From the IMG/VR virus record IMGVR_UViG_2911215477_000001, positions 38,486-102,485 of that record: 64,000 bases of DNA, one strand, 5' to 3'. The notes beneath the pieces were generated by a model. It made no database searches. It was not told the origin of the DNA and saw only the letters and a program-made list of their open reading frames with translations. This DNA comes from a virus. Lineage: Duplodnaviria; Heunggongvirae; Uroviricota; Caudoviricetes. A program made the translations under genes and the position numbers. The stretch's first letter is position 1; each line of letters begins with the position of its first letter. Below are positions 1,279 to 64,000 of this stretch, piece by piece.

Positions 1279-1922
1279 GCCGGCAGCCACTCGTACTTGG
1301 TCAGGTCCACACGCTCGCCGTAGAGCTTCTCCACGGTGAGGGTCGGCCCGAGATACTTGGTCAGGTCCGTGTGCGTCGTCGCCACGACCAGGGTTGCACC
1401 ACGGGTGCGGGCAGCCTTGGAGATGTTGAACGCCACGATCTTGGCGGTCTCGCGGTCCAGCACGGCTGCGAACTCGTCAGCCACCCAGACATTCGCGCCC
1501 GACTCCAGCACTTTGGCTAGGCGGAAGCGGTAACGCTGACCATCGGACAGCTCAGAAGGCTTTCGCACCCATACGTAGGCGTCGTTCAAGCCGGCCTGGC
1601 TCATCAGCTCCAGTGCCTCGCGGGTGTCCGAGCCGATCTGATCAACCAGCGGGACATCCAGGAGGGGCACCTCGTCGATGGAGATGACGTTCTTGCCACC
1701 CTCGCGCAGCTGCTGGGCCACGTCGCGGAGCAACAGGGACTTGCCCGAGCCGGACTGGCCCGTGATGTAGAGGATGTCGCCGTCGTTGACCTCGATCTCC
1801 AGGTCTTCGTAGATCACAAAGCGCTTGTCGGAAAGACCGAGCCCAAAGGACTCGGCCACTTCCAACACGCGGCTGGATTTCTCAACGCGGGTGTCGAAGG
1901 ACTTGTTAACCCGCAGCAGCAT
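1275..1922 (-). CDS. soluble ABC-type ATPase (no TM domain)
   Basis: Walker A GQSGSGKS, ABC signature LSDGQRYR, Walker B VWVADEF, H-loop TTHTD; RBS GAGG. Confidence 0.6.
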   Translation of the reverse strand: MLLRVNKSFDTRVEKSSRVLEVAESFGLGLSDKRFVIYEDLEIEVNDGDILYITGQSGSGKSLLLRDVAQQLREGGKNVISIDEVPLLDVPLVDQIGSDTREALELMSQAGLNDAYVWVRKPSELSDGQRYRFRLAKVLESGANVWVADEFAAVLDRETAKIVAFNISKAARTRGATLVVATTHTDLTKYLGPTLTVEKLYGERVDLTKYEWLPA

Positions 1923-2601
1923 GGCCAGCCTCGATGTCCAGCATCAGCTCCTGGACGAACGCACCGAACGCTTCCCCACCCTTCTTGCCGGTCTTCATCT
2001 CGGCCTGGCCCTGGAATCGCGCCAGAGCACGCTCAAACGCGACAGGAAGCGCGCTGAAGCCCAGCACATGATTCACTGCGATGAACTGCGAGCGCTCTTC
2101 TGCGGGCTTCTCAGACGTGATGGTGACGGACGTGGTGCGGGCAGCTTCGATAGCGCCCACGAGGGACGAGGTATCGACTTCAGCCAGGTCGGTGAACAGG
2201 AACTCCAGCTCCTTGTCGTCGAAGCCGATGGTCTCCAGTTCGAAGCCTTCGTCCTTCAGCGAGTGCAGTTCGCTGTTGATCATGTCCACGTCGAAGTCAC
2301 CGAGGGCGACACGGTTGTCCGAGAGGCGCGCAGCCTTGGTCTGTGCCGGGGTCAGGTCACTGCGGACGATGACCGGGACTTCCTTCAGACCCAGATGGAT
2401 CGAAGCCAGGCGACGACCGTGGCCCTTGATGATCACGCCATCGGCGTCCACCACGATGGGCACGTCAAAGCCCTGGGTCTGGATGACCTTCGCCAGCGCC
2501 TCGACCTGGGCCGAGGTGTGGATCTTGGGGTTCTTGTCGTAGGGCTTGATGCGATCAATGGCCCACGATTCGATAGTTGGTTTGTACGGCTTCCCTGCCA
2601 T
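1906..2601 (-). CDS. ParB-like nuclease domain protein
   Basis: ParB N-terminal-domain motif IIKGHGRRLA, KP..K.H; start re-called at MAGKPYK with RBS CAGGAGC. Confidence 0.6.
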   Translation of the reverse strand: MAGKPYKPTIESWAIDRIKPYDKNPKIHTSAQVEALAKVIQTQGFDVPIVVDADGVIIKGHGRRLASIHLGLKEVPVIVRSDLTPAQTKAARLSDNRVALGDFDVDMINSELHSLKDEGFELETIGFDDKELEFLFTDLAEVDTSSLVGAIEAARTTSVTITSEKPAEERSQFIAVNHVLGFSALPVAFERALARFQGQAEMKTGKKGGEAFGAFVQELMLDIEAGHAAAG

Positions 2602-2614
2602 AACAGCTCCTGAG

Positions 2615-3274
2615 TTAATCCTTCTGGCTCCAGTTGGAGCAGAGATAGACGAGTGCGTCGCCGGCATTGGCCAGGGAGTCCTGTCCCGTAAAGCCCTGCC
2701 GCTTCATCACCGCCTCCATGATTCGGGTCACACGATCCGCGTCTTCGAGGGGAACCTTGAAGCGCATCATCTGGTGCGTCTGAGGTGCCGACGTCACCTC
2801 ATCCATCGGGCTGGGCTCCTCGGGTTTGGAGAAGCTCAGATCGAGTTCCAGGTCCAGCGAGTCCAGGTCGATGGAATCGCTCTGGAAGATCTCTTTGAGG
2901 TCGTTGTCGCTGAAGGGCATGAACTCGGTCACGTCGCCTTCGATGTCCTTGAGCAGGCTCGACAGCTTCAGCGTGTCTTCCAGCCCGTAGTGACGGTTAT
3001 CGACAACGGCAATCTCCTTCGCACGCTTGTCGTCAATCGGACCAAGGTTGTAGACGTCGATCTGGTCGTAGCCGATGGCAATCGCTGCGCGGGTCGTGTG
3101 CTCGCCGGCAATGACTTCCAGCTCGCCTGTCGGTAGCTCGCGCACAACGACGGGGCGGAACAGACCATTGCGGCGAATGCTCTCTTCCAGTCGTCGCTGG
3201 TTGTCCGGGGAGACGTGATTCGCGTTCCACGGACTGAATTGCAGATTTTTTGGATCAACGCACTGCGTTTTCAC
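2615..3274 (-). CDS. ParB-like N-terminal domain protein with acidic C-terminus
   Basis: EVIAGEHTTRAA ParB-like motif; first gene after the divergent promoter motif at 3285. Confidence 0.5.
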   Translation of the reverse strand: MKTQCVDPKNLQFSPWNANHVSPDNQRRLEESIRRNGLFRPVVVRELPTGELEVIAGEHTTRAAIAIGYDQIDVYNLGPIDDKRAKEIAVVDNRHYGLEDTLKLSSLLKDIEGDVTEFMPFSDNDLKEIFQSDSIDLDSLDLELDLSFSKPEEPSPMDEVTSAPQTHQMMRFKVPLEDADRVTRIMEAVMKRQGFTGQDSLANAGDALVYLCSNWSQKD

Positions 3275-5200: not shown

Positions 5201-5224
5201 TGTATAATATGTATGCGCATACAT
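5201..5224. promoter_or_regulatory. family-A motif TGTATAATATGTATGCGCATACAT
   Basis: Near-identical to the 3285 copy; upstream of the lysin gene. Confidence 0.5.
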
Positions 5225-5261
5225 CACGCGCATCACCCCAAGCAACAAGAGGCAATATGTT

Positions 5262-8873: not shown

Positions 8874-9467
8874 TTACGCTTCCAGTGCGAAGCGCTCCCA
8901 TTCTGCGCGCTTGCTGTCAAGCAAAGCGAAAGACTTGTCAGACACGTCAGAGCTGATCCAGTTGAGCGCACGCAGCGCCTTGAGACTGCTAGAGGCTTGC
9001 GTGGGAGCGGTCGAGCTGCCAATGGGGAGTTTCTTCAAAAGCGCATTGGTCACGCCTTTGGTCTGCAATTCGCCAGCATCACGCAGAATGCTGATCGAAG
9101 CGTAAAGCGTCACATTGGGCTTCTCACGCTGCAACACTTCGCGCCAATGGCAACCCTTGCCGAGTGCAGTCACGACAGCTTGCAGCTTGTCCTGCGCGTA
9201 GATAGCGGCGCGCATGGCGTAGGAGTGGTCAACGTGCGCAGTGTAGGCGGCGAGAATCTTCTCATCCTTCAGCATGCCGACCCACTTATCAGCGCGACGC
9301 TTTGCGTTCTTTGCGCTTGTCACTTCGTCGCTGCTCTTATTCTTGTCTGCAATGATCGCAGCAAGCTTGTCAGACTGCGCAGCGTAGTCTGCGCGGAAGT
9401 CGATAGCGTCAGCGACAGTAGCAGCGGCGACGGTCTTAGCAGCGGTCTTAGCGGTCTTAGCCATTTT
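8874..9467 (-). CDS. hypothetical Ala/Lys-rich protein (start MAKTAKTAAK)
   Basis: The ORF-track start lies upstream of the family-A motif at 9524, so the start was moved to the first ATG after the motif and a 5'UTR hairpin. Confidence 0.45.
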   Translation of the reverse strand, partial: KMAKTAKTAAKTVAAATVADAIDFRADYAAQSDKLAAIIADKNKSSDEVTSAKNAKRRADKWVGMLKDEKILAAYTAHVDHSYAMRAAIYAQDKLQAVVTALGKGCHWREVLQREKPNVTLYASISILRDAGELQTKGVTNALLKKLPIGSSTAPTQASSSLKALRALNWISSDVSDKSFALLDSKRAEWERFALEA

Positions 9468-9523
9468 AGTATTCCCTTTGGTTTGGTTTGGGTTAGTGCG
9501 GTCTTGCCCGACCGCACAAACAT

Positions 9524-9540
9524 AGTATGCGCATACATAC
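9524..9540. promoter_or_regulatory. family-A motif AGTATGCGCATACATAC
   Basis: Palindrome GTATGCGCATAC; followed on the sense strand by GTGCGGTC..GACCGCAC, a 5'UTR hairpin without a U-tract. Confidence 0.45.
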
Positions 9541-9977
9541 TTCCCGTCAACAGATTTATTCAACTTTTTTTGATGGAAAAAACATGGTGTATGTATTGAC
9601 ATACTATGCAAGTGCATGTTAGTCGCGTGCGCGCTTTCATTCTCTCTCAGTGCATGCTTTTTGCTGCGCTGCATATAGACGTCTATACGTCTGTGTGATA
9701 GTCGCGCACTCCTACGTGCGATGCTCCTATGCGACGCGCACGAGCAATCCATGGTTTTCCCACCGAGCACCGGTTTAACCAACGTCTTTCCACCGGGAGC
9801 AGGAAAGCCCTGGTGGCCGCCAAACCTAGAGGGAAACCTATGGGACGCCAACTTACCTATAGGGGCACCCATAGCCGGGTAATCCATGGGTCAACCTGCC
9901 CTATGCCCAAAAGAAAGCCCAGAGGTGATCTGGGCTTGCTGACTACGGTGGACAGGGCAACTGCAGGAGATTGAGAT

Positions 9978-10139
9978 TTAGCATGGGCTAAGGACGCTCT
10001 TTCGCTTCATGGTGCGTTGGGCGCGACGATCCAGGTTTCGGGCTTTCTCACGCTGTCGATGGCGGTGATGCGCTTCGACAAGTTCCAACGCAGAGTAGTT
10101 GGTCGTGTAACCACCATTGAATCGTTTGCTAGCTTTCAT
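9978..10139 (-). CDS. small basic protein (53 aa)
   Basis: RBS GGAGATGGAGAG before ATG; Arg/Lys-rich. Confidence 0.35.
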   Translation of the reverse strand: MKASKRFNGGYTTNYSALELVEAHHRHRQREKARNLDRRAQRTMKRKSVLSPC

Positions 10140-10510
10140 GCTATCTCTCCATCTCCATGTGTCTCTTATGTCGGGTGTCATCGCAGCTGTGAACTCGTTC
10201 AAAGTTCTTTGCGATGTGTGAATTTTGCGCTTATGCGCTATTTCCGAGAACAAATGGAACTAGGTAGAAGTCGATTTCCAGGAGAGACCCTATCAACGTA
10301 ACTCTAGGGCGAATGCCTGTCTGAAACGCCCTGTATCGAGCCCTAAGCGCCTCCTAGGGTTTCTCTATATCTGCGTCGCTCTGTAGGGCTGCGTGCGCTG
10401 TGTGACGCTGTAGGCCGCGTTTAGGAAGACCGTCCTAGGCCAGGTGTAGGAGAACCCATGGGTTAGCCGGCGACACAGTAGAAGAGCGCCCATAGGACGC
10501 TCTGTATCGC

Positions 10511-10855
10511 TCAGTATTGAACGCGCTGCAATGACAGCATCAGTTCACTGATTCGCTGCGCGAGCGCGTCGCGTGACTCGTACATCTCGCATGCAACGCG
10601 CTCTTTTTCGATGTCGTCGCTATTGCAGTAAGCGTGCAGATCACGAGTGTCGAGAAGTCCATCGGGTGATTTCTCACTCATCGAGTCGTAGACGTTCAGC
10701 GTATACATCGTTTCGTCGCTGTCGATCCACTGGTCATCAATCATCGTGTGCTGTGCTGCGATCACATGCACGACATAGCGTTCTTGAATCAGCATGAACG
10801 CGAAATTGTAAAAATCATCATGGTCTTGCACGTTTGCGACAGTGAAAGCTTTCAT
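10511..10855 (-). CDS. early-type small acidic protein (start MKAFTVANV)
   Basis: Preceded by the family-B cassette (CCATGG..GTGCCGATAGTCGG..CTCACTCACA); the ORF-track start MTTFNV lies inside the cassette. Confidence 0.5.
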   Translation of the reverse strand: MKAFTVANVQDHDDFYNFAFMLIQERYVVHVIAAQHTMIDDQWIDSDETMYTLNVYDSMSEKSPDGLLDTRDLHAYCNSDDIEKERVACEMYESRDALAQRISELMLSLQRVQY

Positions 10856-10939
10856 AGTTGCATGCTCTTGCGTTGTGAGTGAGCAAGCAGTGTCGCGTTG
10901 GATGCGAAACCCGACTATCGGCACGTTGAAGGTTGTCAT

Positions 10940-10975
10940 GCCGGAGTAACCATGGGTGATCTGCAGACAAGAGAA
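10940..10975 (-). terminator. hairpin terminator at the cassette boundary (GAGCGCC..GGCGCTC)
   Basis: Stem-loop followed by a T-rich tract on the minus strand. Confidence 0.45.
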
Positions 10976-11001
10976 AGCGCCTACAAGAGGCGCTCTCGCT
11001 A

Positions 11002-11277
11002 TCAGACGTCGAGGTCGATCTCAAAGTCAGACCATGAATCGCGCTTGTCGAACTCAGCGTAAGCCTGCATGAGGGCGCTCGATGCTTGCACGACATTCAG
11101 ACCCAGCTGTAGGCATGCGTTGCGACTGATCTGCACGTCGTAGAACAGGTCATTGAGGTCGTCATCTTCACGAACGAGGTCAAGCGTCGCGAAGCGAACA
11201 CCATCGCTCGTGACTTGAAAGGTCGTCGTATCGTTCGCTTCGTCGATGATGATTTCGAAAAGAACCTTGATCTGCAT
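11002..11277 (-). CDS. early-type small acidic protein (start MQIKVLF)
   Basis: Family-B cassette upstream; CACTCACTCACAGAGCAAAACGCT immediately 5' of the ATG. Confidence 0.5.
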   Translation of the reverse strand: MQIKVLFEIIIDEANDTTTFQVTSDGVRFATLDLVREDDDLNDLFYDVQISRNACLQLGLNVVQASSALMQAYAEFDKRDSWSDFEIDLDV

Positions 11278-11414
11278 AGCGTTTTGCTCTGTGAGTGAGT
11301 GTGTAAGCATCATCTGTGAGGTCGCAACGCCCGAGAATCGGCACGATGCCGGTGATTCCATGGGTTATCCATGCGCTCGATGCGAGAAGAGCGACGCTAG
11401 GTCGCTCTGTAGGT

Positions 11415-11741
11415 TCAGTCGTTCTCGCGATCAATAACCATGCGTTCGACGACGTGTTCCATCGCTGCTGCGATGCTGTCGTGCGTCTCATCGAGGAGCA
11501 CGCAGTTGACTTGAGAGAACACGTCAACACCTTGGTCGAACGAGAGCACGCGATACTGTCGCGTTTCGAGGTTCTGAAGGAGGAAATAGTGATTTCCTTC
11601 ATAGATCTTCGCTTGCACGCTGTAGGTTGTGTCAGCGTCATCGACGACCTCAGCGTTGAAATCTTGCGCGAGCAAGTAGCGAACCAGCGCGATGTGATTC
11701 GTGTCGATGTCGTTCGTGTCAATCTTCGCTGCAATCTTCAT
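11415..11741 (-). CDS. early-type small acidic protein
   Basis: Family-B cassette upstream (CCATGGATTCGCCGGCATG..CCGATTCTCGG..ACACTCACATGAG). Confidence 0.5.
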   Translation of the reverse strand: MKIAAKIDTNDIDTNHIALVRYLLAQDFNAEVVDDADTTYSVQAKIYEGNHYFLLQNLETRQYRVLSFDQGVDVFSQVNCVLLDETHDSIAAAMEHVVERMVIDREND

Positions 11742-11905
11742 ACGTAGGTCTCATGTGAGTGTGCGTCGCTGCATTGCGACGAGACACATGATCGAGTTGG
11801 ACGCGAGTTCCGAGAATCGGTGTGTTTGAGGACTCATGCCGGCGAATCCATGGGTTGCCCAGGAGGTGCGCATGAGAAGAGCGACACGAGGTCGCTCTAT
11901 AGGAC

Positions 11906-12187
11906 TCAGAGGGCTTCGAGCACGTCTTCGTCAACACCAGCTTCGCAACAGTTGAACTCGAAAACACCAGCTGCGAGAGACTTCATGTGCTCACGAGCGC
12001 GCTGTGCAAGTTCCAGCTGCTGCTCTTTAGGACGTTCTGCGATTGCTTCGCTGAGGTGATAGCTCAAGCGCACGAAGAGGTCATACTGCTCGCCCTCACT
12101 CTCTTGAAACGCGAAGAGCGCGAGGTCGTAATCGACGTAGACGAGAGTGTTGTTGAGGAACTTTTCGACGTACTGCTGAGCGTTCAT
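11906..12187 (-). CDS. early-type small acidic protein (start MNAQQYV)
   Basis: GACTCACTCACAGAGAAATAGACCT immediately 5' of the ATG; family-B cassette upstream. Confidence 0.5.
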   Translation of the reverse strand: MNAQQYVEKFLNNTLVYVDYDLALFAFQESEGEQYDLFVRLSYHLSEAIAERPKEQQLELAQRAREHMKSLAAGVFEFNCCEAGVDEDVLEAL

Positions 12188-12377
12188 AGGTCTATTTCTC
12201 TGTGAGTGAGTCGCTATCTGCGACACACGCATGATCGTGTTGGATCTGATTTCCGACTATCGGCACTCTTGAGGCCAGGATCACCCATGGTCTATCCATG
12301 GCTTGCCCTGACTCTCACCCAAAACAAAGGCCCGATGGCACTCACTCCATCGAGCCTCTGTCCCAGCTGACTTGTCT

Positions 12378-12409
12378 CCCCTACTGAGTCCTGGTCATTC
12401 TCAGTAGGG
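12378..12409 (-). terminator. hairpin CCCTACTGAG..CTCAGTAGGG downstream of gene 12453..12908
   Basis: 10-bp perfect stem; no clear U-tract. Confidence 0.35.
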
Positions 12410-12452
12410 CACAACTAATAAGGTGGTCATGTCCTTGTGGTCCCTTGGCCGC

Positions 12453-12908
12453 TTACAGGGCGACTGCGTGGATGCCGGCTTCACCGTTCATGGCGCGCTT
12501 CATCAGCTCAGCCACGAGTTCTTCGGTCGTCAGGGCGCTGACACTGGTGGTCGCTTCCACTGCCGGACCCTGGTTCGCATGGTCGTCGAAGGTCTCCAGG
12601 ACATCGAGGATCTCCTCCGCGATACCGTCGATGCGGGGCGTCACCAGGTCGTTCGGACGCTTGCTGGGCTGACCCATCACGATGGGACGCAGCAGATCCT
12701 GCAGCAGTGCCAGCTGGACGTTGCCTTCCTCGTCACCCTTGGCCTTGCGGAACTTGGCGAGCATCCCGGCGACCTGGTGGAGATACGCACCGTGCATCAG
12801 CACTTCCTCGGCGTGATGAGCCAGCTCCTGACGCAGCTCGTTCTCGGTCATGTTGCGGACCATCTCACCGTGCATCAACAACTGGTCTTTCTTCTGCTGC
12901 TCGTTCAT
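12453..12908 (-). CDS. hypothetical protein (start MNEQQKK)
   Basis: Start re-called downstream of the family-A motif at 12955-13000; RBS GAGAGAAACAGAGCC. Confidence 0.5.
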   Translation of the reverse strand: MNEQQKKDQLLMHGEMVRNMTENELRQELAHHAEEVLMHGAYLHQVAGMLAKFRKAKGDEEGNVQLALLQDLLRPIVMGQPSKRPNDLVTPRIDGIAEEILDVLETFDDHANQGPAVEATTSVSALTTEELVAELMKRAMNGEAGIHAVAL

Positions 12909-12954
12909 GGCTCTGTTTCTCTCTGTGCGCTGCGCGCTTTGTGTTTGTGTGCTT

Positions 12955-13000
12955 AGTGTATGTATGCGCTCACATATCGTCAAGCGCATACGTATGGGAT
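12955..13000. promoter_or_regulatory. family-A motif, extended palindrome GTATGTATGCGCTCACATATCGTCAAGCGCATACGTATGG
   Basis: Inverted repeat around the GCGC core. Confidence 0.5.
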
Positions 13001-13294
13001 CTACTTGGCAGTGCGTGACTCGTGGCGGTGCATGAAGACGATCAGGCCGATCCACATGACCAGGCCAATCACCCCACCCACGGCCATCATTGCATCGACC
13101 TCGCTGGTGTTCATCAGGACACAGAGGGCCAAGATGAGATAGAGGCTCAGCAGCACCACGTCCAACAGGTTGGCACCTCCCTTCTTGGCCGGCTTCCAAC
13201 CCTGTGCCATGCGGTAGACATCACCTGTGGCCTGAAAACGGGTCATGCCTGCCTCGATAGGAATGCCGGCGTACTGGTGTGCAATCACGTTCAT
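13001..13294 (-). CDS. small membrane protein (2 TM)
   Basis: The ORF-track start MTCR..MHIH includes the motif; start re-called at MNVIAHQ; hydrophobic LLSLYLILALCVL and VGGVIGLVMWIGLIVF. Confidence 0.45.
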   Translation of the reverse strand: MNVIAHQYAGIPIEAGMTRFQATGDVYRMAQGWKPAKKGGANLLDVVLLSLYLILALCVLMNTSEVDAMMAVGGVIGLVMWIGLIVFMHRHESRTAK

Positions 13295-13551
13295 AGCGTT
13301 TGCTCGCTGCGTTGTGTGTATGTGCATACATAGTAGCGCATCAGCAACAACCGACAATCGGCACGTCATAGGACTATTGGCGGCCCCTCCATGGGTTATC
13401 CATGGCTCACCCTAGGGCGGCTCCACCCAAAAAAGTGCCCCTGCGAGCGGGCAAGCTCCAGGGGCGTGGTCGAACAATAATCAGAGCCCAAAGGGAGGCC
13501 GAGGACGGGAGTCTTTGGCCCACCTACCCTGTTACTGCAGACAGGGTGATT

Positions 13552-14013
13552 TTAGTCGGTTTCGCGGAAGGGGGCCACCTTGTACTGGTCGTGGATCTGG
13601 ACGAACCAGGTCTCGGTGATGAAATCGAGGATGCTATGCACCAGGCGCAGGTCAAGCGTCCCCTGGTCCTCGTCCGTGGTCTCCTGGTGAATGCCCATCC
13701 AGTCGTTCCGGAAGGACAGAGGAAACAGGACTTTGGTGCCATTGATGGTCAGCTCCATCAGGACAATATCCGGGTCACGCATCAGATCACCATTGGACTC
13801 GCCGTAGCTGGCAATGGAGTACGTGGGCTGGCCATAGTGGTTGCTGATGACCTCGACCAACACATCCATCATGCCCTGGGACTTGAACCGCGTATTCCGG
13901 CGATGACCTTCCATCAGCAGATCGAACTGCTCATAGGCCCAGGTCATACGGCCAAAGGTTCTGTCTTGTGTGGCCAGCTGCTCGATGGCAGTGATCACTT
14001 TATGGTCCGTCAT
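13552..14013 (-). CDS. hypothetical protein
   Basis: Partial family-B cassette upstream (CCATGG x3, CAGATAGTCGG). Confidence 0.45.
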   Translation of the reverse strand: MTDHKVITAIEQLATQDRTFGRMTWAYEQFDLLMEGHRRNTRFKSQGMMDVLVEVISNHYGQPTYSIASYGESNGDLMRDPDIVLMELTINGTKVLFPLSFRNDWMGIHQETTDEDQGTLDLRLVHSILDFITETWFVQIHDQYKVAPFRETD

Positions 14014-14289
14014 GCTGTGCTCCGTTGTCAGTTGCTGCGATGAGCAAATGATGATTGTGGCGCATGACCCCGACTATCTGGGAGAGATCAGATACCTGCC
14101 CTAGGCTGGGCCATGGTTGTGCCATGGGCTCACCTGCGGTCTATCCATGGTCTGCTGATGGTTGGCCCACCGGCCCTATGGTTTGTGGCTGCTCTACGTG
14201 TATAGAGAGATAGAGATATGCACGCTTGTCCCTAGAGCCTATGGGAAAACCTATGGTCGGCCATCCATCAACCTATGGCACCTTGGCTG

Positions 14290-14560
14290 CTGGTCCACCC
14301 TAGTCCCAGTGATCATGTCCCTAGTTTTGATTAGTTATAGGGAAATATAGAACCCGTAGGCCGCCTATTTCCCAAGAATCACTGCTCAATAAACCTATTT
14401 GTTATGGCCGTCTAAATAGATACGTTTACTTTTGGCCATCCAGAACATGCTCAAAACAGCCAAAAACCATGTTGACGTACTGTTTGAGGGGTTAATGACT
14501 AATTTCCCTATGCTAATAAACATGAGGGAATGGCCAACCAGTGTGCCTAGTGCCAAGGCC
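14290..14560. other. AT-rich ORF-free tract with host-like promoter elements
   Basis: AT-rich tract, e.g. TTGACGTACTGTTTGAGGGGTTAATGACT; no coding signal. Confidence 0.4.
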
Positions 14561-14569
14561 AACCGCTCC

Positions 14570-14720
14570 CATGGTTCAACCATGGATAGACCTAGGGGAG
14601 AGTGACGGTTGGCTCATGGGATGGCCGGCTATGGGAGAGCCATGGTTGAGCAGAGGAGGTGCCAATACAGGGGAAACCATGGATAGACCATGGGCAAGCC
14701 TAGGGCCGGGTTGGCACCAC
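14570..14720. repeat. cluster of CCATGG / CCTAGG / ATCCATGG palindromic motifs
   Basis: At least 6 CCATGG and several CCTAGG within 150 nt; the same ATCCATGG motif heads the family-B cassettes. Confidence 0.5.
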
Positions 14721-15361
14721 TATCCCTATAGGGAACCAGGTCATCTGGAGCCGGGAGTATCTCTTTCTCTATGGAAGTGCCTATCTGATGCCGGAGCTAT
14801 CTGACTGACCTAGTACATGTGCTACGTAGGCCAGGATTAGGAAGACCGTGTTTGCTCCGGATGAGCGACAGCTCGGAAACTAGGCAATCTGAGAACTCAG
14901 GATATGACGCCCCCTACCCCGTGACGATGCACTGAGTAGGGACACATCCCGGCCTTCAGACTGCCTTGGGGAGTTTGACTCCCTCCCGGTGGTGATCCAC
15001 AGGGGCAACCTTCAACCTCATGCCATTGCGACAGTCACTGTTGTTCCTCGGTGCGCATGAGCCTGGGCAAGCCAGAACAGGTAACACCGTGTCACTCACC
15101 CGCCTCGCTGTCGCACCTATCGGTGACGCCCGAGTCCTGTCTGCGGGAAATCCTTCATCAGGGTCATTGCTACAAGAGCTGCCAGTGGCCGAACGTATGG
15201 GTGCCGATAAACCGCTAGCTGACCTGAGTATGTTAGCGCGTACATACCGTGGCGGGCAATGCTGGATAGAGCATGGGTCGGCCGGACTTGGGAGCGCCTG
15301 GACATGGAGGGGCCATGGGAAACCCTTGCAATATATGTGGCGCGGGCCGGCACCGTCATTT

Positions 15362-15560
15362 GCCCTTCCCTTCCACAGGCACCTCGGCTCTCCCATCCCT
15401 CTATACCCCGGCCTGTCTCTTCCCATACCCCTATGCGTAGGCCATCCCTACTGCTACTCCCCATAGCTCTCTCCCCTAGGGTGTGTGTGCTCCTCTATCC
15501 CTTCTTCCCTATACCCACAAGTCTTCTCCTGCATCCCTATAGCCGGACACAATACCGACC
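15362..15560. repeat. polypyrimidine (C/T-rich) tract with degenerate CCCTATAC-like repeats
   Basis: Roughly 200 nt of almost purely C/T plus strand. Confidence 0.5.
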
Positions 15561-15594
15561 TCGACCTGGTGCGATTCGTGTGTGTCTGTGTCGT

Positions 15595-15795
15595 TCTCTA
15601 TGCGTGGGATGAGCGCTCGTTCTTTGTATCGTTCGTGCTGCTTATCTCTATGCGAGAAACGCGCTAGATCGACGCGAGAGACATTTCCCTTATGCGAGCG
15701 CTGTGCTGCTACTCGTTCTATGCGGGGAACGTCACAGTGATCGTTTTAGCGTTCGACGATGTTGACGATATGGGTGTGTTTCTCATGCGGGAGTG
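15595..15795. repeat. five iteron-like direct repeats TCTATGCG(G/A)G
   Basis: Copies near 15598, 15656, 15690, 15720 and 15783 with 30-63 nt spacing. Confidence 0.55.
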
Positions 15796-15839
15796 TTGAT
15801 TTCGCGGAAAGCGTGTCAAGTTCCCTTTACATGTGTTGG

Positions 15840-15975
15840 CGATCGAGGCGTTTGCGAATTTAAGTTATTGATCCGGCAGGTTTATTTGGAATTTTGGTGG
15901 GTTCGATACAAATAATTTCTGTAACGGAGGGACTTAACAGATTCGTTGAGTGACCGCTTTGCAGGAATTGACCAA
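15840..15975. other. AT-rich tract (possible DNA unwinding element) next to the iterons
   Basis: gaatttaagttattgatcc..tttatttggaattttggtgggttcgatacaaataatttctg. Confidence 0.4.
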
Positions 15976-16011
15976 CTTGCGCCCTTACATCAACACCTAT
16001 AAGGCTTAAAC

Positions 16012-19773: not shown

Positions 19774-20489
19774 GCAACCTCCGGAACAAGCTTCGGACGA
19801 GCTGCGATGCGAGCTTCCTCGGCAGTGATCATTTCCATGCTCGGGGGTGCGGGGAAGCCAACGATGTCGTCCTGGAACACGCGACAGGCGATGCACGCGA
19901 GATTGGGATACTTCTCAAGCGTGGCGCGATCCTCGAAGGTGGAACGGCTGTAGACGTTCTCGATGGATTCGACTTCGCTGATCTGGTTCTTGGTCTTGAG
20001 GAAGAACGCAGAGCTACCCAGGTGGACTTCGTACTCACAGGTCTCGTCGTCGTAACCCACGATGCAGAGCTGCTGACCATTGGGAAGATCGGCGCGGACT
20101 TCGTAATCCACGACACGAGCCGGGTTGCTGTCGATGAACGAGTAGGACTTCAGCATTTCTTCCCACTGGGCATCAGTGAGAGGCGCGAACTTGGGATCCA
20201 GCAGGAACAGGAGGTCGCGGTCGAAGATCTCCTGAAGGTCGTCCTCGCAGATACCCCAGTCACGGATGTCCTGGCGGGTGTCGGCACCCTGGATGTTGAA
20301 CATGTCATCAACGTCTTCCGGAGCATCGACGGGCACGCAGTAGAGCTTCTGCTCGCCATCCACGGAGACGAGGAAGTAGTTGTAGCTCAGGCCCACGGTG
20401 CGGTAGCGGTCGGGCATCTCGACAAGGATGGCTTTGATCTTCATCGCTTGCTCGTGGACTTCTTTCACTGCTCGCTCGTACTTGGTCAT
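19770..20489 (-). CDS. hypothetical protein
   Basis: Partial family-B element (GTGCCGATAGTCGG) about 80 nt upstream. Confidence 0.45.
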   Translation of the reverse strand: MTKYERAVKEVHEQAMKIKAILVEMPDRYRTVGLSYNYFLVSVDGEQKLYCVPVDAPEDVDDMFNIQGADTRQDIRDWGICEDDLQEIFDRDLLFLLDPKFAPLTDAQWEEMLKSYSFIDSNPARVVDYEVRADLPNGQQLCIVGYDDETCEYEVHLGSSAFFLKTKNQISEVESIENVYSRSTFEDRATLEKYPNLACIACRVFQDDIVGFPAPPSMEMITAEEARIAARPKLVPEVA

Positions 20490-20784
20490 GTCTCTTCTCT
20501 CGTTGCGCGTCGTGCGCTTCTCAGTGCGAGCAGATTAAGAACGGCTCACACACCCGACTATCGGCACGTAATAGGCGCACGACGCTCTCTGTCTCGCTCT
20601 GCGCGTCGCGTGACGCTCAAGCTAGACAGTGATGTGATTTCTAGGGGAAGCGCTTAGCGCTCGTTCTACGCAGTCACAGACATCGCCCTGAAAGACGTGT
20701 CGCGCTGCGTCTCTTCTCTACCTGGTGAACCCAAGGCTGAACTGATCAGCCAATGTCACGTCATGGAAAACGTGACAAGTTGGC

Positions 20785-27703: not shown

Positions 27704-27807
27704 TCTCTTCTCTCTGGGTTGAAGCGCTAGCGCGCTTTCTCTATGTGCGCACAGTATGCGCATACATACTCGTAATTGCAACAGCTGGCACTAGGCACAA
27801 ACACTAT

Positions 27808-44004: not shown

Positions 44005-44035
44005 CGTGCGTATGCGCTTACATACTATTATCGAC
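44005..44035. promoter_or_regulatory. family-A motif CGTGCGTATGCGCTTACATACTATTATCGAC
   Basis: On the sense strand reads ATAATAGTATGTAAGCGCATAC, then RBS and GTG. Confidence 0.5.
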
Positions 44036-44065
44036 AAAAGACGACTGCCGACTATCGGTGCATCT

Positions 44066-49275: not shown

Positions 49276-49310
49276 GCTATGTATGCGCTTACGTACTATT
49301 GTACTTATAG
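49276..49310. promoter_or_regulatory. family-A motif upstream of sbcD
   Basis: GCTATGTATGCGCTTACGTACTATTGTAC. Confidence 0.5.
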
Positions 49311-53259: not shown

Positions 53260-53391
53260 TTGGGTATTTCCTTGTTGTAGTGTTTGAGTGTTTGCAGTGG
53301 CACTCGACTACGCGGGTTTTCGCTTCGTCGTCATGCTCGTGCATCGTATGCGTTTTGTATGTATCCGCATACGTATTTTTCTAGGCAGAGC

Positions 53392-59660: not shown

Positions 59661-59761
59661 TGGGTCTCTCCTCTCTTCTCTCTGAATTGTTCGCGCTGCG
59701 CGCTTTATGTATGTACGTACATACTCTAAGCGTCGCAGCGCGGGGTTTCAATACTGGTTCG

Positions 59762-61870: not shown

Positions 61871-61933
61871 TCTCTCTTCTCTCCGTTATGCGTCGCGCTC
61901 GCATTGAATATGTATGCGCGTACATACGAGTAT

Positions 61934-62454: not shown

Positions 62455-63177
62455 TCACATGGTCGCGAGTTCGATCAACCCAAGAGCGACGGACACGGCA
62501 CATAGGGCGGCTTTGTTTCGCACCCCTAATCGGTCACTGGCCATGTTGAGGTGCGCATTGACGGTGCGCATGGAAATCCCAAGGCGTTCAGCAACTTCCT
62601 CGGCAGTGAGTCCTTGGGCGGATAACTCAACGACCGCAACCTGCTGAGGCGTCAAAATTTCGACGCTCGATTTCACTCCGTCATCCTCTCGACTGAGGGC
62701 GTAGTGCATGTGCCCAAAAAAGGCATACATGTCGTTCTCCCTCTGCATCGCGTGCCAGAGAGGAATGTCAGCTTTCGTGGCAAGACACATGATCATCCAG
62801 TTCCGAGCGGTGTGTCGGTCCTGGAGGATGACGCCGGAATGGATCCCGTTCTGTCTCCACAGATTTATCGCGCACGGTTCTTCGGTGAGGACTTGCAGCG
62901 CTGTGTTGTAGACAGCCTGCCCGTCATCACGCCATGCGGTTACAGGAGCAGTGCTCCAGAGAATGTCGTAAGCATCTTTGCCTCGATTCTCTTTCCATAT
63001 CTGGATGCGCTGTTCCCAGGCACCCGTAGGCATGTTGTCGAACGTATAGATATGACCGGAAGCGCGGCGGCCTATCACCGCCAGAAACTCATAACCGAGG
63101 TTCGTTGCGATCCGATAAGCGTGTTCCCTAAGCCGATTTCCATCCTCGGAAGCCAGTCCGGAGATGTCCCTAGGCAT
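62455..63177 (-). CDS. LuxR-family transcriptional regulator (autoinducer-binding N-domain plus GerE/LuxR HTH)
   Basis: C-terminal LTPQQVAVVELSAQGLTAEEVAERLGISMRTVNAHL; the N-terminal 170 aa have Trp/Tyr/Asp spacing like an autoinducer-binding domain. Confidence 0.6.
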   Translation of the reverse strand: MPRDISGLASEDGNRLREHAYRIATNLGYEFLAVIGRRASGHIYTFDNMPTGAWEQRIQIWKENRGKDAYDILWSTAPVTAWRDDGQAVYNTALQVLTEEPCAINLWRQNGIHSGVILQDRHTARNWMIMCLATKADIPLWHAMQRENDMYAFFGHMHYALSREDDGVKSSVEILTPQQVAVVELSAQGLTAEEVAERLGISMRTVNAHLNMASDRLGVRNKAALCAVSVALGLIELATM

Positions 63178-63303
63178 GGGGCAGCCCTCCGTAAGAACCG
63201 GAAATTGTGAGGCTTTTCTCTTGTATAAGTCTTTTGGGACGGGGCGAAAAGTCTTGCGATTTACTCGTTGTTAAGCGAACTAACTATTGGTAACGTAGTC
63301 CCC

Positions 63304-63328
63304 GCATATAATCAGTACGTACATACAT
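63304..63328. promoter_or_regulatory. family-A motif CATATAATCAGTACGTACATACATC
   Basis: TATAAT plus palindrome GTACGTAC. Confidence 0.45.
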
Positions 63329-63350
63329 CGTCACACGGAGAGAAGATTTC

Positions 63351-63761
63351 ATGCCTGCGAACCCGGTATCCAACTACCTGAAAGCGAAGATCGAAGCGAC
63401 CGGCAAGACGCTCAAGGAGTTGGGAGCGGAAGCCGGCTTCAAGCAAGCGAACGCTTTCGTCCTCCTCAAGAGCGGCGACATGCGTCTGCCGATGGACCGC
63501 ATCCCTGGCGTTGCGAAGGCCATCGAGGCTGACGAGAAGGAACTCTTCGAACTCGCCCTGAAGCACTACGAGCCCACCGTCTACAAGATGATGCAGAAGC
63601 ACTACGCAGCCGGCGCAGTCGATCCTGAAGAGGTGAAGCTCCTGGCTGAGATAAAGCGCGCCATCGGCGGCAAGAGCATCAAGCACGATGCCAAGACGCG
63701 CTCTCTCATCCAGGAGGTTGTGAAGAACGTCTACGTCGGCGCAGCGCTCAAGAAGGCTTAA
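63351..63761 (+). CDS. HTH DNA-binding protein
   Basis: RBS GGAGAGAAG; helix-turn-helix-like LKELGAEAGFKQANAFVLLKSGD. Confidence 0.45.
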   Translation: MPANPVSNYLKAKIEATGKTLKELGAEAGFKQANAFVLLKSGDMRLPMDRIPGVAKAIEADEKELFELALKHYEPTVYKMMQKHYAAGAVDPEEVKLLAEIKRAIGGKSIKHDAKTRSLIQEVVKNVYVGAALKKA

Positions 63762-64000
63762 TTGATCGTCTTCTGGCGATGCTTGCGAAACCAATCTAGC
63801 GTCGCTCCCAACTCGTAACGAACGATTCGGCCCGTCTGGATAAAAGGCGGGCCTTTTCTTTGCCAGCGGTTGTTGATGAACCACTTCTCGCTCAGTCCGA
63901 GCAGTGCGGCAATCTCTTCGGTCGTCAAAGGCATGTCAGGCGCAGTCCTGGCCATGCGCTCCACACGCTCGTCCAGCGTGAGCGTTCTCAGTGCTCCCAT
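63758..64000 (-). CDS. AlpA/excisionase-like HTH protein; start may lie beyond the window edge
   Basis: LTTEEIAALLGLSEKWFINNRWQRKGPPFIQTGRIVRY, an AlpA/MerR-type motif. Confidence 0.45.
   Translation of the reverse strand: MGALRTLTLDERVERMARTAPDMPLTTEEIAALLGLSEKWFINNRWQRKGPPFIQTGRIVRYELGATLDWFRKHRQKTIN

What the first reader, a model, noticed from the sequence alone, without database searches (positions are those of the whole stretch)
10855..14160. Repeated early-gene cassette (family B): CCATGG..CCGGCATG..GTGCCGAT(A/T)NTCGG..CTCACTCACAGAG before each small acidic ORF
Five to seven small minus-strand genes (starts at 10855, 11277, 11741, 12187 and, partially, 14013 and 20489; also 44048 before sbcC) are each preceded by the same roughly 100-nt module. 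The module runs: terminator hairpin (GAGCGAC..GTCGCTC type), ATCCATGG, CCGGCATG, the palindrome CCGA-N3-TCGG, then CTCACTCACA(G)AG about 10 nt before the ATG. The element is conserved at the nucleotide level but falls in different reading frames in different copies (MTTFNVPIVGF versus MESPASCRFSG). It is therefore regulatory rather than coding, and the ORF-track N-termini are artefacts. This looks like an array of host-takeover (early) genes, each with its own promoter or operator and a shared leader. The proteins are small and acidic, which is typical of anti-restriction or anti-host factors.
Basis: seen in the sequence. Interest (0 to 1): 0.7.

Follow-up and report, generated by a model that had tools for sequence, protein, structure and literature searches.

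The report
Repeated promoter–terminator cassettes in a prophage
A large prophage in the soil bacterium Dyella telluris puts the same short control module (terminator, 14-base box, promoter, leader) in front of several unrelated small acidic genes of unknown function; this layout is known from other phages, but this box has not been described.

Summary
The core CCGATNNTCGG occurs 7 times exactly (0.72 expected). A position-weight scan finds exactly 8 sites. All are on the minus strand, all are intergenic, and all lie 54-69 nt before a start codon.

The whole ~100-130-nt module (terminator, CCATGG, CCGGCAT, box, CTCACTCACAGAG) is shared only by the tandem cassettes at 10.8-13.4 kb. The copies at 14013, 20489 and sbcC share only the 14-nt box and a -10-like hexamer placed 16±1 nt after it.

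My reading is that each cassette is an insulated transcription unit. The box's right arm, T(A/T)NTCG, acts as a weak -35. The palindrome over it is probably a regulator site. The predicted start, 7 nt after the -10, coincides with 5' hairpins in two copies. CTCACTCACAGAG is the mRNA 5' end plus a weak ribosome-binding site.

The proteins are acidic singletons with no homologues. Early timing and an anti-restriction role are untested.

The window is an integrated ~110-kb prophage encoding a DnaE-type polymerase. The closest analogues are T4 PeSL cassettes and prophage morons.

One oddity: CCATGG is purged from the rest of the window but occurs 19 times here, in 11-bp-phased arrays.

The parts
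10911..10924 (-). B-box copy 1, GTGCCGATAGTCGG, before the 114-aa gene (true start probably 10855)
   Evidence: PWM 22.6
10889..10894 (-). -10-like hexamer GACACT, 16 nt after the box; predicted transcription start about 10882
10968..10997 (-). Terminator hairpin GAGAGCGCC..GGCGCTTTCTCTTG after the 91-aa gene
10865..10883 (-). Leader CTCACTCACAACGCAAGAG (predicted mRNA 5' end plus a weak AGAG ribosome-binding site)
10511..10855 (-). 114-aa acidic singleton protein (pI 4.36); annotated as 142 aa from 10939
11331..11344 (-). B-box copy 2, GTGCCGATTCTCGG
   Evidence: PWM 20.5
11309..11314 (-). -10-like hexamer GATGAT; predicted start about 11302; leader CTCACTCACAGAG at 11278-11299
11358..11374 (-). 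CCATGG dyad GCATGGATAACCCATGG (11-bp phase), followed by CCGGCAT at 11346-11352
11384..11408 (-). Terminator hairpin AGAGCGACctagcGTCGCTCTTCTC
11002..11277 (-). 91-aa acidic singleton protein (pI 4.05); AF2 model pLDDT 87, no fold match
11810..11823 (-). B-box copy 3, ACACCGATTCTCGG
   Evidence: PWM 16.7
11788..11793 (-). -10-like hexamer GATCAT; predicted start about 11781
11764..11781 (-). 5'-terminal hairpin CGTCGCaatgcaGCGACG; its first base is the predicted start (leader folds to -10.8 kcal/mol)
11874..11898 (-). Terminator hairpin AGAGCGACctcgtGTCGCTCTTCTC; then a degenerate CCATGG dyad at 11848-11863 and CCGGCATG at 11835-11842
11415..11741 (-). 108-aa acidic singleton protein (pI 4.42)
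12253..12266 (-). B-box copy 4, GTGCCGATAGTCGG
   Evidence: PWM 22.6
12231..12236 (-). -10-like hexamer GATCAT; predicted start about 12224, which is the first base of the hairpin GTCGCagataGCGAC (12210-12224); leader CTCACTCACAGAG follows
12285..12301 (-). CCATGG dyad CCATGGATAGACCATGG
12318..12360 (-). Strong terminator with a T-run (CAGAGGCTCGATGG..CCATCGGGCCTTTGTTTTGGG)
11906..12187 (-). 93-aa acidic singleton protein (pI 4.35)
13351..13364 (-).
   Evidence: PWM 21.9
13315..13335 (-). -10-like hexamer TACTAT (15 nt after the box), running into a copy of the phage-wide palindrome TATGTATGCACATACACA
13389..13405 (-). CCATGG dyad CCATGGATAACCCATGG, with CCTAGG one phase step upstream; terminator at 13426-13465
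14070..14083 (-). Degenerate B-box copy 6, TCCCAGATAGTCGG, before the DUF6908 gene 13552-14013; -10-like CATCAT at 14048-14053
   Evidence: (PWM 15.5)
14100..14150 (-). Five-unit phased array CCATGG-CCGCAG-CCATGG-CCATGG-CCTAGG (11-12 bp steps)
20554..20567 (-). B-box copy 7, GTGCCGATAGTCGG, before the 239-aa acidic gene (start 20489; PGAP uses 20444); -10-like TAATCT at 20532-20537
44048..44061 (-). B-box copy 8, GCACCGATAGTCGG, before sbcC (GTG at 43993); -10-like GATAAT at 44027-44032, then palindrome TATGTAAGCGCATACGCA at 44007-44024
   Evidence: identical in the relative L136

Best explanation
Each cassette is an insulated single-gene transcription unit inside an integrated ~110-kb prophage of Dyella telluris that encodes a DnaE-type polymerase.

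Reading 5' to 3' on the minus strand, a cassette contains:
1. a rho-independent terminator that closes the upstream gene;
2. a CCWWGG array phased at 11 bp (usually CCATGG-N5-CCATGG), probably bound by an unknown oligomeric DNA-binding protein;
3. a two-element promoter of the sigma-70 type.

In this promoter the right arm of the 14-bp box, T(A/T)NTCG, sits where a -35 hexamer belongs. It resembles the TTGACG used by the prophage's consensus-like promoters. A hexamer (G/T/C)A(T/C)NAT follows after a 16-17-bp spacer, counting the box's last G as part of the spacer. The box extends the weak -35 leftwards into the palindrome CCGA-N3-TCGG, centred near -34. This is most simply a site for a phage (or host) regulator that sets when this promoter class fires.

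Transcription would start about 29 nt after the box. The mRNA begins either with the CA-rich CTCACTCACA or with an inserted 5'-terminal hairpin, and a weak AGAG/GAGA ribosome-binding site follows.

The same promoter class also drives sbcC and a 239-aa gene. The cassettes therefore belong to the phage's own lytic programme, though whether early or middle is unknown.

The five tandem modules are homologous over 100-130 nt while their genes are unrelated singletons of lower G+C. This fits module-mediated gain and loss of accessory genes, as with T4 PeSLs.

Shown: the motif statistics, spacing, strand and position, the hairpins, and the properties of the proteins. Inferred: promoter activity, the start sites, the binding protein, timing, and recombination.
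For: - There are eight sites and only eight. All are co-oriented with the genes, all are intergenic, and all lie 54-69 nt before a start codon.
- A -10-like hexamer sits 16 nt after the box in 6 copies and 15 nt after it in 2. The mean best -10 score is 4.06, against -4.12 for random sets of 8 positions; 0 of 20000 random sets reach it.
- This spacing holds in copies 14013, 20489 and 43993, whose intervening sequence is unrelated.
- All length variation lies downstream of the hexamer. The inserts in copies 11741 and 12187 are hairpins whose first base is exactly 7 nt after the hexamer.
- A terminator-like hairpin lies upstream of 6 of the 8 copies: the five tandem modules and sbcC. None was identified upstream of the 14013 and 20489 copies.
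- Consensus-like promoters elsewhere in the prophage use TTGACG-17-TACACT or TACTAT, which is close to the box's TTGTCG, TAGTCG and TTCTCG.
- A ninth site, TTGTTCTCGG-N16-CAAAAT (10222-10253), keeps the right arm and the spacing but lacks the left arm.
- The downstream proteins are unrelated to each other and are singletons. G+C is 0.528 in 10-12 kb, against about 0.59 elsewhere.
- The box falls in two different reading frames.
Against: - There is no transcript data, so promoter activity and start sites are predictions.
- The -35-like arm matches TTGACA at only 3-4 of 6 positions, and the -10 hexamers often start with G. The generic sigma-70 scan did not call these sites.
- The box itself contains GAT(A/T)NT, an xAxxxT hexamer present in all 8 copies. 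Its left half resembles the sigma-28 -10 consensus GCCGATAA. A single-element promoter is therefore not excluded.
- No comparative support was obtainable. More distant relatives lack the box. The only close relative is 100% identical across the sbcC upstream region, and its cassette region is not in the collections.
- The five tandem copies are related by descent, so they are not independent observations.
- No candidate binding protein is identified.
Confidence: 0.6

Rival explanations
1. The 14-bp box is by itself a single-element promoter, read as an extended -10 by an alternative sigma factor: host FliA/sigma-28 or a phage-encoded factor. Transcription would start 4-8 nt after TCGG, and the hexamer 16 nt downstream would lie in the leader.
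For: GCCGATAG matches the sigma-28 -10 consensus GCCGATAA at 7 of 8 positions in 3 copies (consensus from PMC12784957). GAT(A/T)NT inside the box is an xAxxxT hexamer in all 8 copies, with a mean score of 2.94. No conserved -35 lies upstream of it. The prophage encodes a 240-aa protein whose C-terminus scores with GerE and sigma-70 region 4 models.
Against: No TCTAAAG or TAAA lies 14-15 bp upstream in any copy (checked by reading the sequences). The last two consensus positions vary (AG, TC, TG), whereas TCGG, which is not part of the sigma-28 consensus, is invariant. The fixed spacing to the downstream hexamer in otherwise unrelated copies would be unexplained. The 240-aa protein shows no sigma region 2, even at E up to 1.
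Confidence: 0.12
2. The cassettes are morons: accessory genes with their own promoter and terminator, expressed from the repressed prophage for the benefit of the lysogen, rather than lytic early genes.
For: The element is integrated in the chromosome next to ftsH and has structural genes to the left of the window. Each gene has its own terminator and promoter-like site. G+C is lower than in the neighbouring DNA. The products are singletons.
Against: The same box drives sbcC and a gene inside the long leftward early/replication array. Two box promoters also carry the palindrome found on more than 20 promoters of replication and nucleotide-metabolism genes. This argues for control by the phage's own programme. 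The genes lie in line with, and in the same orientation as, that array.
Confidence: 0.2
3. The similarity is only a leftover of tandem duplication, or the box is a recombination or structural (hairpin) site with no promoter role.
For: The five tandem modules are clearly related by descent. CCGA-N3-TCGG and CCATGG-N5-CCATGG can form small hairpins of -3.3 to -6.6 kcal/mol. PeSL-like modules are thought to act as recombination points (PMC2839356).
Against: The coding sequences between the modules share nothing, so plain duplication does not explain the pattern. Three distant copies (14013, 20489, 43993) keep only the box and the spaced hexamer. All copies have one orientation and one distance to a start codon. 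The stem is only 4 bp. No integrase or recombinase family appears among the Pfam hits listed for the called genes.
Confidence: 0.08

Closest known systems
PeSL (promoter-early stem-loop) cassettes of T4-like phages (Arbiol et al. 2010, PMC2839356; Comeau et al. 2014, PMC4122927)
   Same: A conserved composite intergenic element of about 100 bp holds a stem-loop terminator, a promoter, a Shine-Dalgarno site and the start codon. It is repeated in front of unrelated orphan genes clustered in a variable region, and each gene is transcriptionally insulated.
   Different: The phage lineage is different: a temperate ~110-kb element with a DnaE-type polymerase, not a T4-like myovirus. There is no consensus sigma-70 -35 and no AT-rich upstream region. 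Instead there is a 14-bp GC-rich palindromic box and CCWWGG arrays. Recombination at the modules is not shown here.
Morons of lambdoid and other prophages
   Same: Single accessory genes sit between their own promoter and terminator inside a prophage, with base composition differing from the neighbouring DNA.
   Different: Morons do not normally share a conserved flanking module, nor a promoter class that is also used by core phage genes such as sbcC.
Promoters whose -35 is replaced or overlapped by a regulator box (T4 middle promoters with the MotA box; operators over the -35)
   Same: A recognisable -10 is combined with a conserved non-consensus box in the -35 region that defines a promoter class. 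This comparison rests on my own knowledge of T4 biology.
   Different: The box sequence is unrelated. It is palindromic and centred near -34 rather than -30. No MotA/AsiA-like proteins were found, and the binding factor is unknown.
Phage T5 pre-early (first-step-transfer) region (Davison, bioRxiv 10.1101/866236)
   Same: Poorly conserved small genes lie next to a large non-coding region (1.66 kb in T5, 2.0 kb here) packed with direct repeats and palindromes. Repeat motifs also occur at the equivalent place in relatives.
   Different: This element is integrated and so presumably temperate. Terminal repeats, two-step injection and homologues of the T5 genes were not examined here, and the repeat motifs are different.
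Helically phased iteron or centromere arrays bound by ParR/omega-type proteins (R1 parC, pSM19035); from my own knowledge
   Same: Short repeats spaced by one helical turn lie in arrays of 2-5 units just upstream of several promoters.
   Different: No ribbon-helix-helix or ParR-type gene was identified. The unit is itself a 6-bp palindrome. This comparison applies only to the CCWWGG part of the module.

Membership tests
PeSL-type regulatory cassettes | Conserved composite intergenic element of about 100 bp holding a stem-loop terminator and a promoter next to the Shine-Dalgarno site and start codon | tested here: met
   Five modules align above all shuffles. Terminator hairpins are found, together with the box and a spaced -10. 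All evidence is in silico.
PeSL-type regulatory cassettes | Strong consensus sigma-70-like early promoter with an AT-rich upstream region | tested here: not met
   The sigma-70 consensus scan does not call these sites. The -35 arm matches TTGACA at 3-4 of 6 positions. The upstream region is GC-rich with CCATGG arrays.
PeSL-type regulatory cassettes | Preferential association with orphan genes in a hyperplastic region | tested here: met
   No PHROG or Pfam hits. All are singletons. The proteins are unrelated to each other. Almost nothing in 8.8-24 kb is shared with relatives.
PeSL-type regulatory cassettes | Recombination between modules creates indels between close relatives, or mini-circles | not testable with these tools
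   The cassette region of the only close relative (SRR11658448) is not in the collections.
PeSL-type regulatory cassettes | Found in T4-like myoviruses | tested here: not met
   The DnaE-UDG polymerase is closest (about 50% identity) to Stenotrophomonas phage ANB28; more distant hits include Rhizobium RHEph10 and Pseudomonas nickie.
Morons | Gene flanked by its own promoter and terminator inside a prophage, with deviating base composition | tested here: met
   Prophage context; hairpins and promoter-like sites; G+C 0.528 against about 0.59.
Morons | Expressed from the repressed prophage | not testable with these tools
   Needs RNA-seq of the lysogen.
Sigma-28 (FliA) promoters | -10 element GCCGATAA | tested here: inconclusive
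   The copies read GCCGATAG (3), GCCGATTC or GCCGATTG (2), ACCGAT.. (2) and CCAGATAG (1). Consensus from PMC12784957.
Sigma-28 (FliA) promoters | -35 element TCTAAAG/TAAA 14-15 bp upstream of the -10 | tested here: not met
   At that position three copies read CGGCATG, GGTGATC and AGCGTCG, and the TAAA position was read in a fourth (11277, ATGG). No TAAA or TCTAAAG was seen there in the others (read).
N4-type hairpin promoters | Hairpin with a 5-7-bp stem and a 3-nt loop, read by a giant virion RNA polymerase | tested here: not met
   The stem is 4 bp in the 7 exact copies. The largest ORF in the window is 1121 aa, which is DnaE. The definition of the family is from my own knowledge.
Integron gene cassettes (attC) | IntI integrase and attC recombination sites between promoterless cassettes | tested here: not met
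   No integrase family appears among the Pfam hits for called genes across and beyond the window. No Rfam family matched. Each cassette carries its own promoter-like site.
Phased iteron/centromere arrays (ParR/omega type) | Short repeats at one-helical-turn spacing in arrays near promoters | tested here: met
   CCATGGNNNNNCCATGG with up to 2 mismatches: 19 matches against 3.2 expected, 16 of them within 9.7-15.4 kb. Arrays are 2-5 units long.
Phased iteron/centromere arrays (ParR/omega type) | Cognate array-binding protein encoded nearby | tested here: inconclusive
   No such family was detected. The only DNA-binding candidates in the window are two ParB_N proteins (1906-3274), a LuxR/GerE-type protein (62455-63177) and an HTH_17 protein (63758-63955).

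The most novel reading that the evidence does not exclude
The 14-bp box and the 11-bp-phased CCWWGG arrays may be the cis-elements of an undescribed phage-encoded control system. In this reading, a box-binding factor and an array-binding oligomer govern a swappable array of orphan-gene cassettes. That would be PeSL-like modular shuffling outside the T4 group. It would also mean that CCATGG sites are kept only here, against a prophage-wide purge of 6-bp palindromes, because they are needed for that function.
Probability: 0.25. Interest if true: 0.6.

Novelty: new variant of a known kind. Interest (0 to 1): 0.4.

Why it matters
If the reading is right, composite promoter-terminator modules that carry orphan genes are not peculiar to T4-like phages. 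They would also occur in a temperate ~110-kb phage group that is linked to phage-plasmids.

The finding gives a compact, testable promoter class: a 14-bp box, a 16-17-bp spacer and a -10. It also gives eight natural variants for finding the factor that reads the box.

It corrects one, probably two, annotated start codons.

Finally, it flags four acidic singleton proteins as candidates for host-directed functions. That function remains open.

Tried and rejected
- Scan of viral contigs with CCATGG..GTGCCGATNNTCGG: 118 unrelated single hits, many of them a palindrome GTGCCGAT..ATCGGCAC in other genes.
- Search for relatives through the DUF6908 protein, the 196-aa protein and the 246-aa protein: nothing close was found. 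L133 and L134, found through the 246-aa protein, are not syntenic, and their box-like hits lie inside coding sequence.
- Relatives reached through the UvsW-like helicase (L122-L127) and phage ANB28 lack both the box and the CCATGG clustering.
- The genome collection gave nothing.
- Phylogenetic footprinting at sbcC: the only close relative is 100% identical there, so it carries no information.
- Known RNA families: none at the gathering threshold. The only weak match is sX7, E = 0.84.
- Paralogy of the cassette proteins: none.
- Function of the proteins by family or fold: none.
- Sigma-28, N4-hairpin and integron readings: each fails a defining feature (see the membership tests).
- The 240-aa LuxR/GerE-type protein as a sigma factor: no sigma region 2 was detected. 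It has only one homologue, so no useful alignment for a structure could be built.

Full report
**Where the window comes from**

The 153-aa protein at 13552-14013 is encoded on NCBI record CP060412.1, a 4.99-Mb chromosome of Dyella telluris. Window position equals record position minus 103258.

The window encodes a DnaE-type polymerase fused to a UDG domain, CobT and CobS, ribonucleotide reductase, SbcCD and a UvsX/RecA-type recombinase. The polymerase is about 50% identical to that of Stenotrophomonas phages ANB28 and BUCTxx99. More distant hits include Xanthomonas JGB6, Rhizobium RHEph10 and Pseudomonas nickie. All of these are phages of about 110 kb, and gene order matches ANB28.

Host genes (ftsH, rlmE and others) begin about 1.4 kb beyond the right end of the window. 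Two ParB_N proteins, a large terminase subunit and further head and tail genes lie to the left. The element is therefore an integrated prophage of about 110 kb. RHEph10 and nickie have been discussed in connection with phage-plasmids (PMC7969092).

**Check of the observation**

- CCGATNNTCGG occurs 7 times exactly, always on the minus strand, against 0.72 expected.
- The 14-mer GTGCCGATNNTCGG with up to 1 mismatch gives 7 matches against 0.58 expected.
- A position-weight matrix separates 8 sites (scores 15.5-22.6) from the next best (12.0, which lies inside a gene on the other strand).
- All 8 sites are intergenic, point the same way as the downstream gene, and end 54-69 nt before its start codon. 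One of them counts as intergenic only if the annotated start at 10939 is rejected.
- The complete module is not universal. Whole-intergenic alignments beat every shuffle only among the cassettes 10855, 11277, 11741, 12187 and 13294. The copies at 14013, 20489 and sbcC share only the core.
- CTCACTCACA is not enriched across the window. It belongs to the homologous leader of four cassettes.
- The frame argument is correct.

**Anatomy of a cassette**

I anchored the eight copies on TCGG. A -10-like hexamer then appears 16 nt downstream in six copies (GACACT, GATGAT, GATCAT twice, CATCAT, TAATCT) and 15 nt downstream in two (TACTAT, GATAAT). The mean best score is 4.06, against -4.12 for random sets of eight positions. 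None of 20000 random sets reaches it.

With a 16-17-bp spacer (the box's last G counted in it), the -35 position is occupied by the right arm of the box: TAGTCG, TTCTCG or TTGTCG. The prophage's consensus-like promoters use TTGACG-17-TACACT or TACTAT.

All length differences between copies lie downstream of the hexamer. In copies 11741 and 12187 the extra sequence is a hairpin (CGTCGC..GCGACG and GTCGC..GCGAC; leaders fold to -10.8 and -7.6 kcal/mol). Its first base lies exactly 7 nt after the hexamer, where transcription would start.

Similar GC-stem hairpins follow other promoters of this prophage. The usual ribosome-binding site there is GAGAGAAGAGA. The cassettes have only AGAG or GAGA.

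Terminator hairpins precede the five tandem modules and sbcC.

A ninth site at 10222-10253 keeps TTCTCGG, the spacing and CAAAAT, but lacks the left arm. This suggests that the right arm is the promoter part and the left arm is an added regulatory part.

**The genes**

- The four tandem products (91-114 aa) have pI 4.05-4.42. The window median is 6.03.
- They are unrelated to each other.
- They have no Pfam or PHROG family.
- Each is the only member of its 90%-identity cluster among about 15 billion proteins.
- G+C is 0.528 in 10-12 kb, against about 0.59 elsewhere.
- A single-sequence AlphaFold model of the 91-aa protein is confident (pLDDT 87), but it matches nothing in PDB or BFVD. The 108-aa model is weak.

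Acidity is therefore confirmed, and function stays open. The box also precedes a basic 97-aa membrane-like protein, a DUF6908 protein, a 239-aa protein and sbcC.

**Comparative evidence**

None was obtainable. ANB28 and the IMG/VR relatives reached through the helicase or the 246-aa protein lack the box. The one close relative is a 29.8-kb Logan contig whose LuxR-type protein is 90% identical. It is 100% identical across the sbcC upstream region, and its cassette region is not in the collections.

**Interpretation**

The best reading (confidence 0.6) is a class of two-element promoters whose weak -35 is overlapped by a palindromic regulator site. These promoters sit inside terminator-insulated modules that carry orphan genes. 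Because sbcC uses the same class, and two copies also carry the phage-wide palindrome, the cassettes look like part of the phage's lytic programme rather than independent lysogenic genes. This is an inference.

The rivals are:
- a single-element promoter resembling the sigma-28 -10, which fails the -35 test (for the consensus);
- morons expressed in the lysogen;
- duplication remnants or recombination sites.

The closest known kind is the PeSL cassette of T4-like phages. The architecture and the association with orphan genes match. The promoter type and the phage lineage do not. The recombination role could not be tested.

**The CCATGG part of the module**

All 19 CCATGG sites of the window lie in 9749-15318. 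Outside that stretch there are none, against 15.7 expected. Inside it there are 19, against 2.1 expected.

The prophage lacks at least 20 different 6-bp palindromes altogether. For example, CTCGAG occurs 0 times against 37 expected, and GAGCTC 0 against 37. The flanking host DNA does not show this.

CCATGG is therefore kept only here. It stands in 11-bp-phased CCWWGG arrays of 2-5 units, upstream of six of the eight box promoters and in the gene-free stretch 14014-16011. The distance from array to box varies between 13 and 26 nt, so the arrays are a separate element.

**Verdict**

This is a real and well-defined regulatory module, and a new variant of a known kind. It is of moderate interest.

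Noticed in passing
window, e.g. 5208-5225, 9522-9539, 12959-12976, 27751-27768, 44007-44024, 49278-49295, 53358-53375, 59706-59723, 61909-61926: A second, far more widespread element is the 18-bp palindrome TATGTATGCGCATACATA. Its 12-bp core occurs 16 times at up to 2 mismatches, against 1.24 expected, and the 18-mer gives 25 hits at up to 5 mismatches, most of them in front of genes on both strands. Its register relative to the -35 and -10 varies. It is conserved at matching places in the close relative L132. It looks like the operator of a global phage repressor or a 5'-terminal RNA hairpin.
   Followed up: partly
whole window, and L131 10649-20648: At least 20 six-base palindromes are completely absent from the prophage (CTCGAG, GAGCTC, CCGCGG, CACGTG, GTGCAC, ACGCGT, CCCGGG, TCATGA, GGGCCC, ATCGAT, AGGCCT and others; 14-37 expected for these in the window). 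They are present in the adjacent host DNA. ANB28 is purged of a partly different set. This is very strong avoidance of restriction sites.
   Followed up: partly
window 9749-15318: CCATGG is the exception to that purge. All 19 sites of the window fall in this 5.6 kb, mostly as CCATGG-N5-CCATGG inside longer 11-bp-phased CCWWGG arrays. The 17-mer CCATGGATAGACCATGG occurs on the minus strand at 12285-12301 and on the plus strand at 14677-14693.
   Followed up: partly
window 14014-16011: A 2.0-kb stretch has no called gene and is full of CCWWGG, TATAGGG and GGGATGG repeats. The relatives ANB28 (L120 11175-11230) and L124 (7582-9575) carry CCTATAGGG and CCCAT-type repeats at what appears to be the corresponding position. 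It could be an origin, a centromere-like site or something like the T5 injection-stop region; the data do not decide.
   Followed up: partly
window 62455-63955 and L130 1-7900: This is the right end of the prophage. It holds a 240-aa protein with a C-terminal LuxR/GerE helix-turn-helix, a divergently transcribed 136-aa gene and a 65-aa HTH_17 (excisionase/AlpA-like) protein. About 1.4 kb without called genes follows, and then host ftsH. This is probably the control and attachment end of the prophage.
   Followed up: partly
window 1906-3274: Two adjacent ParB_N-domain proteins (231 and 219 aa) lie next to an ABC/AAA-type ATPase and upstream of the terminase gene. This phage group has been linked to phage-plasmids (PMC7969092).
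   Followed up: no
window 10856-10939 and 20445-20489: Two annotated start codons are probably wrong. QNK01690.1 (142 aa) starts at an ATG inside the promoter module, and 10855 fits better. QNK01707.1 (224 aa) probably starts at 20489, which follows the phage's typical GAGAGAAGAGAC ribosome-binding site.
   Followed up: yes
window 8874-9464: A basic 196-aa singleton protein (pI 9.5) has an N-terminal AKTAKTAAKT repeat. It lies behind a consensus-like promoter (TTGACG-17-TACTAT) preceded by an A-tract. It may be a histone-like DNA-binding protein.
   Followed up: no
L135 vs L136 (Logan SRR11658448_40792): The only close relative is mosaic. Some segments are 100% identical (the 63-aa gene and the whole sbcC upstream region), others are about 90% identical, and the small genes upstream of that point differ.
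   Followed up: partly
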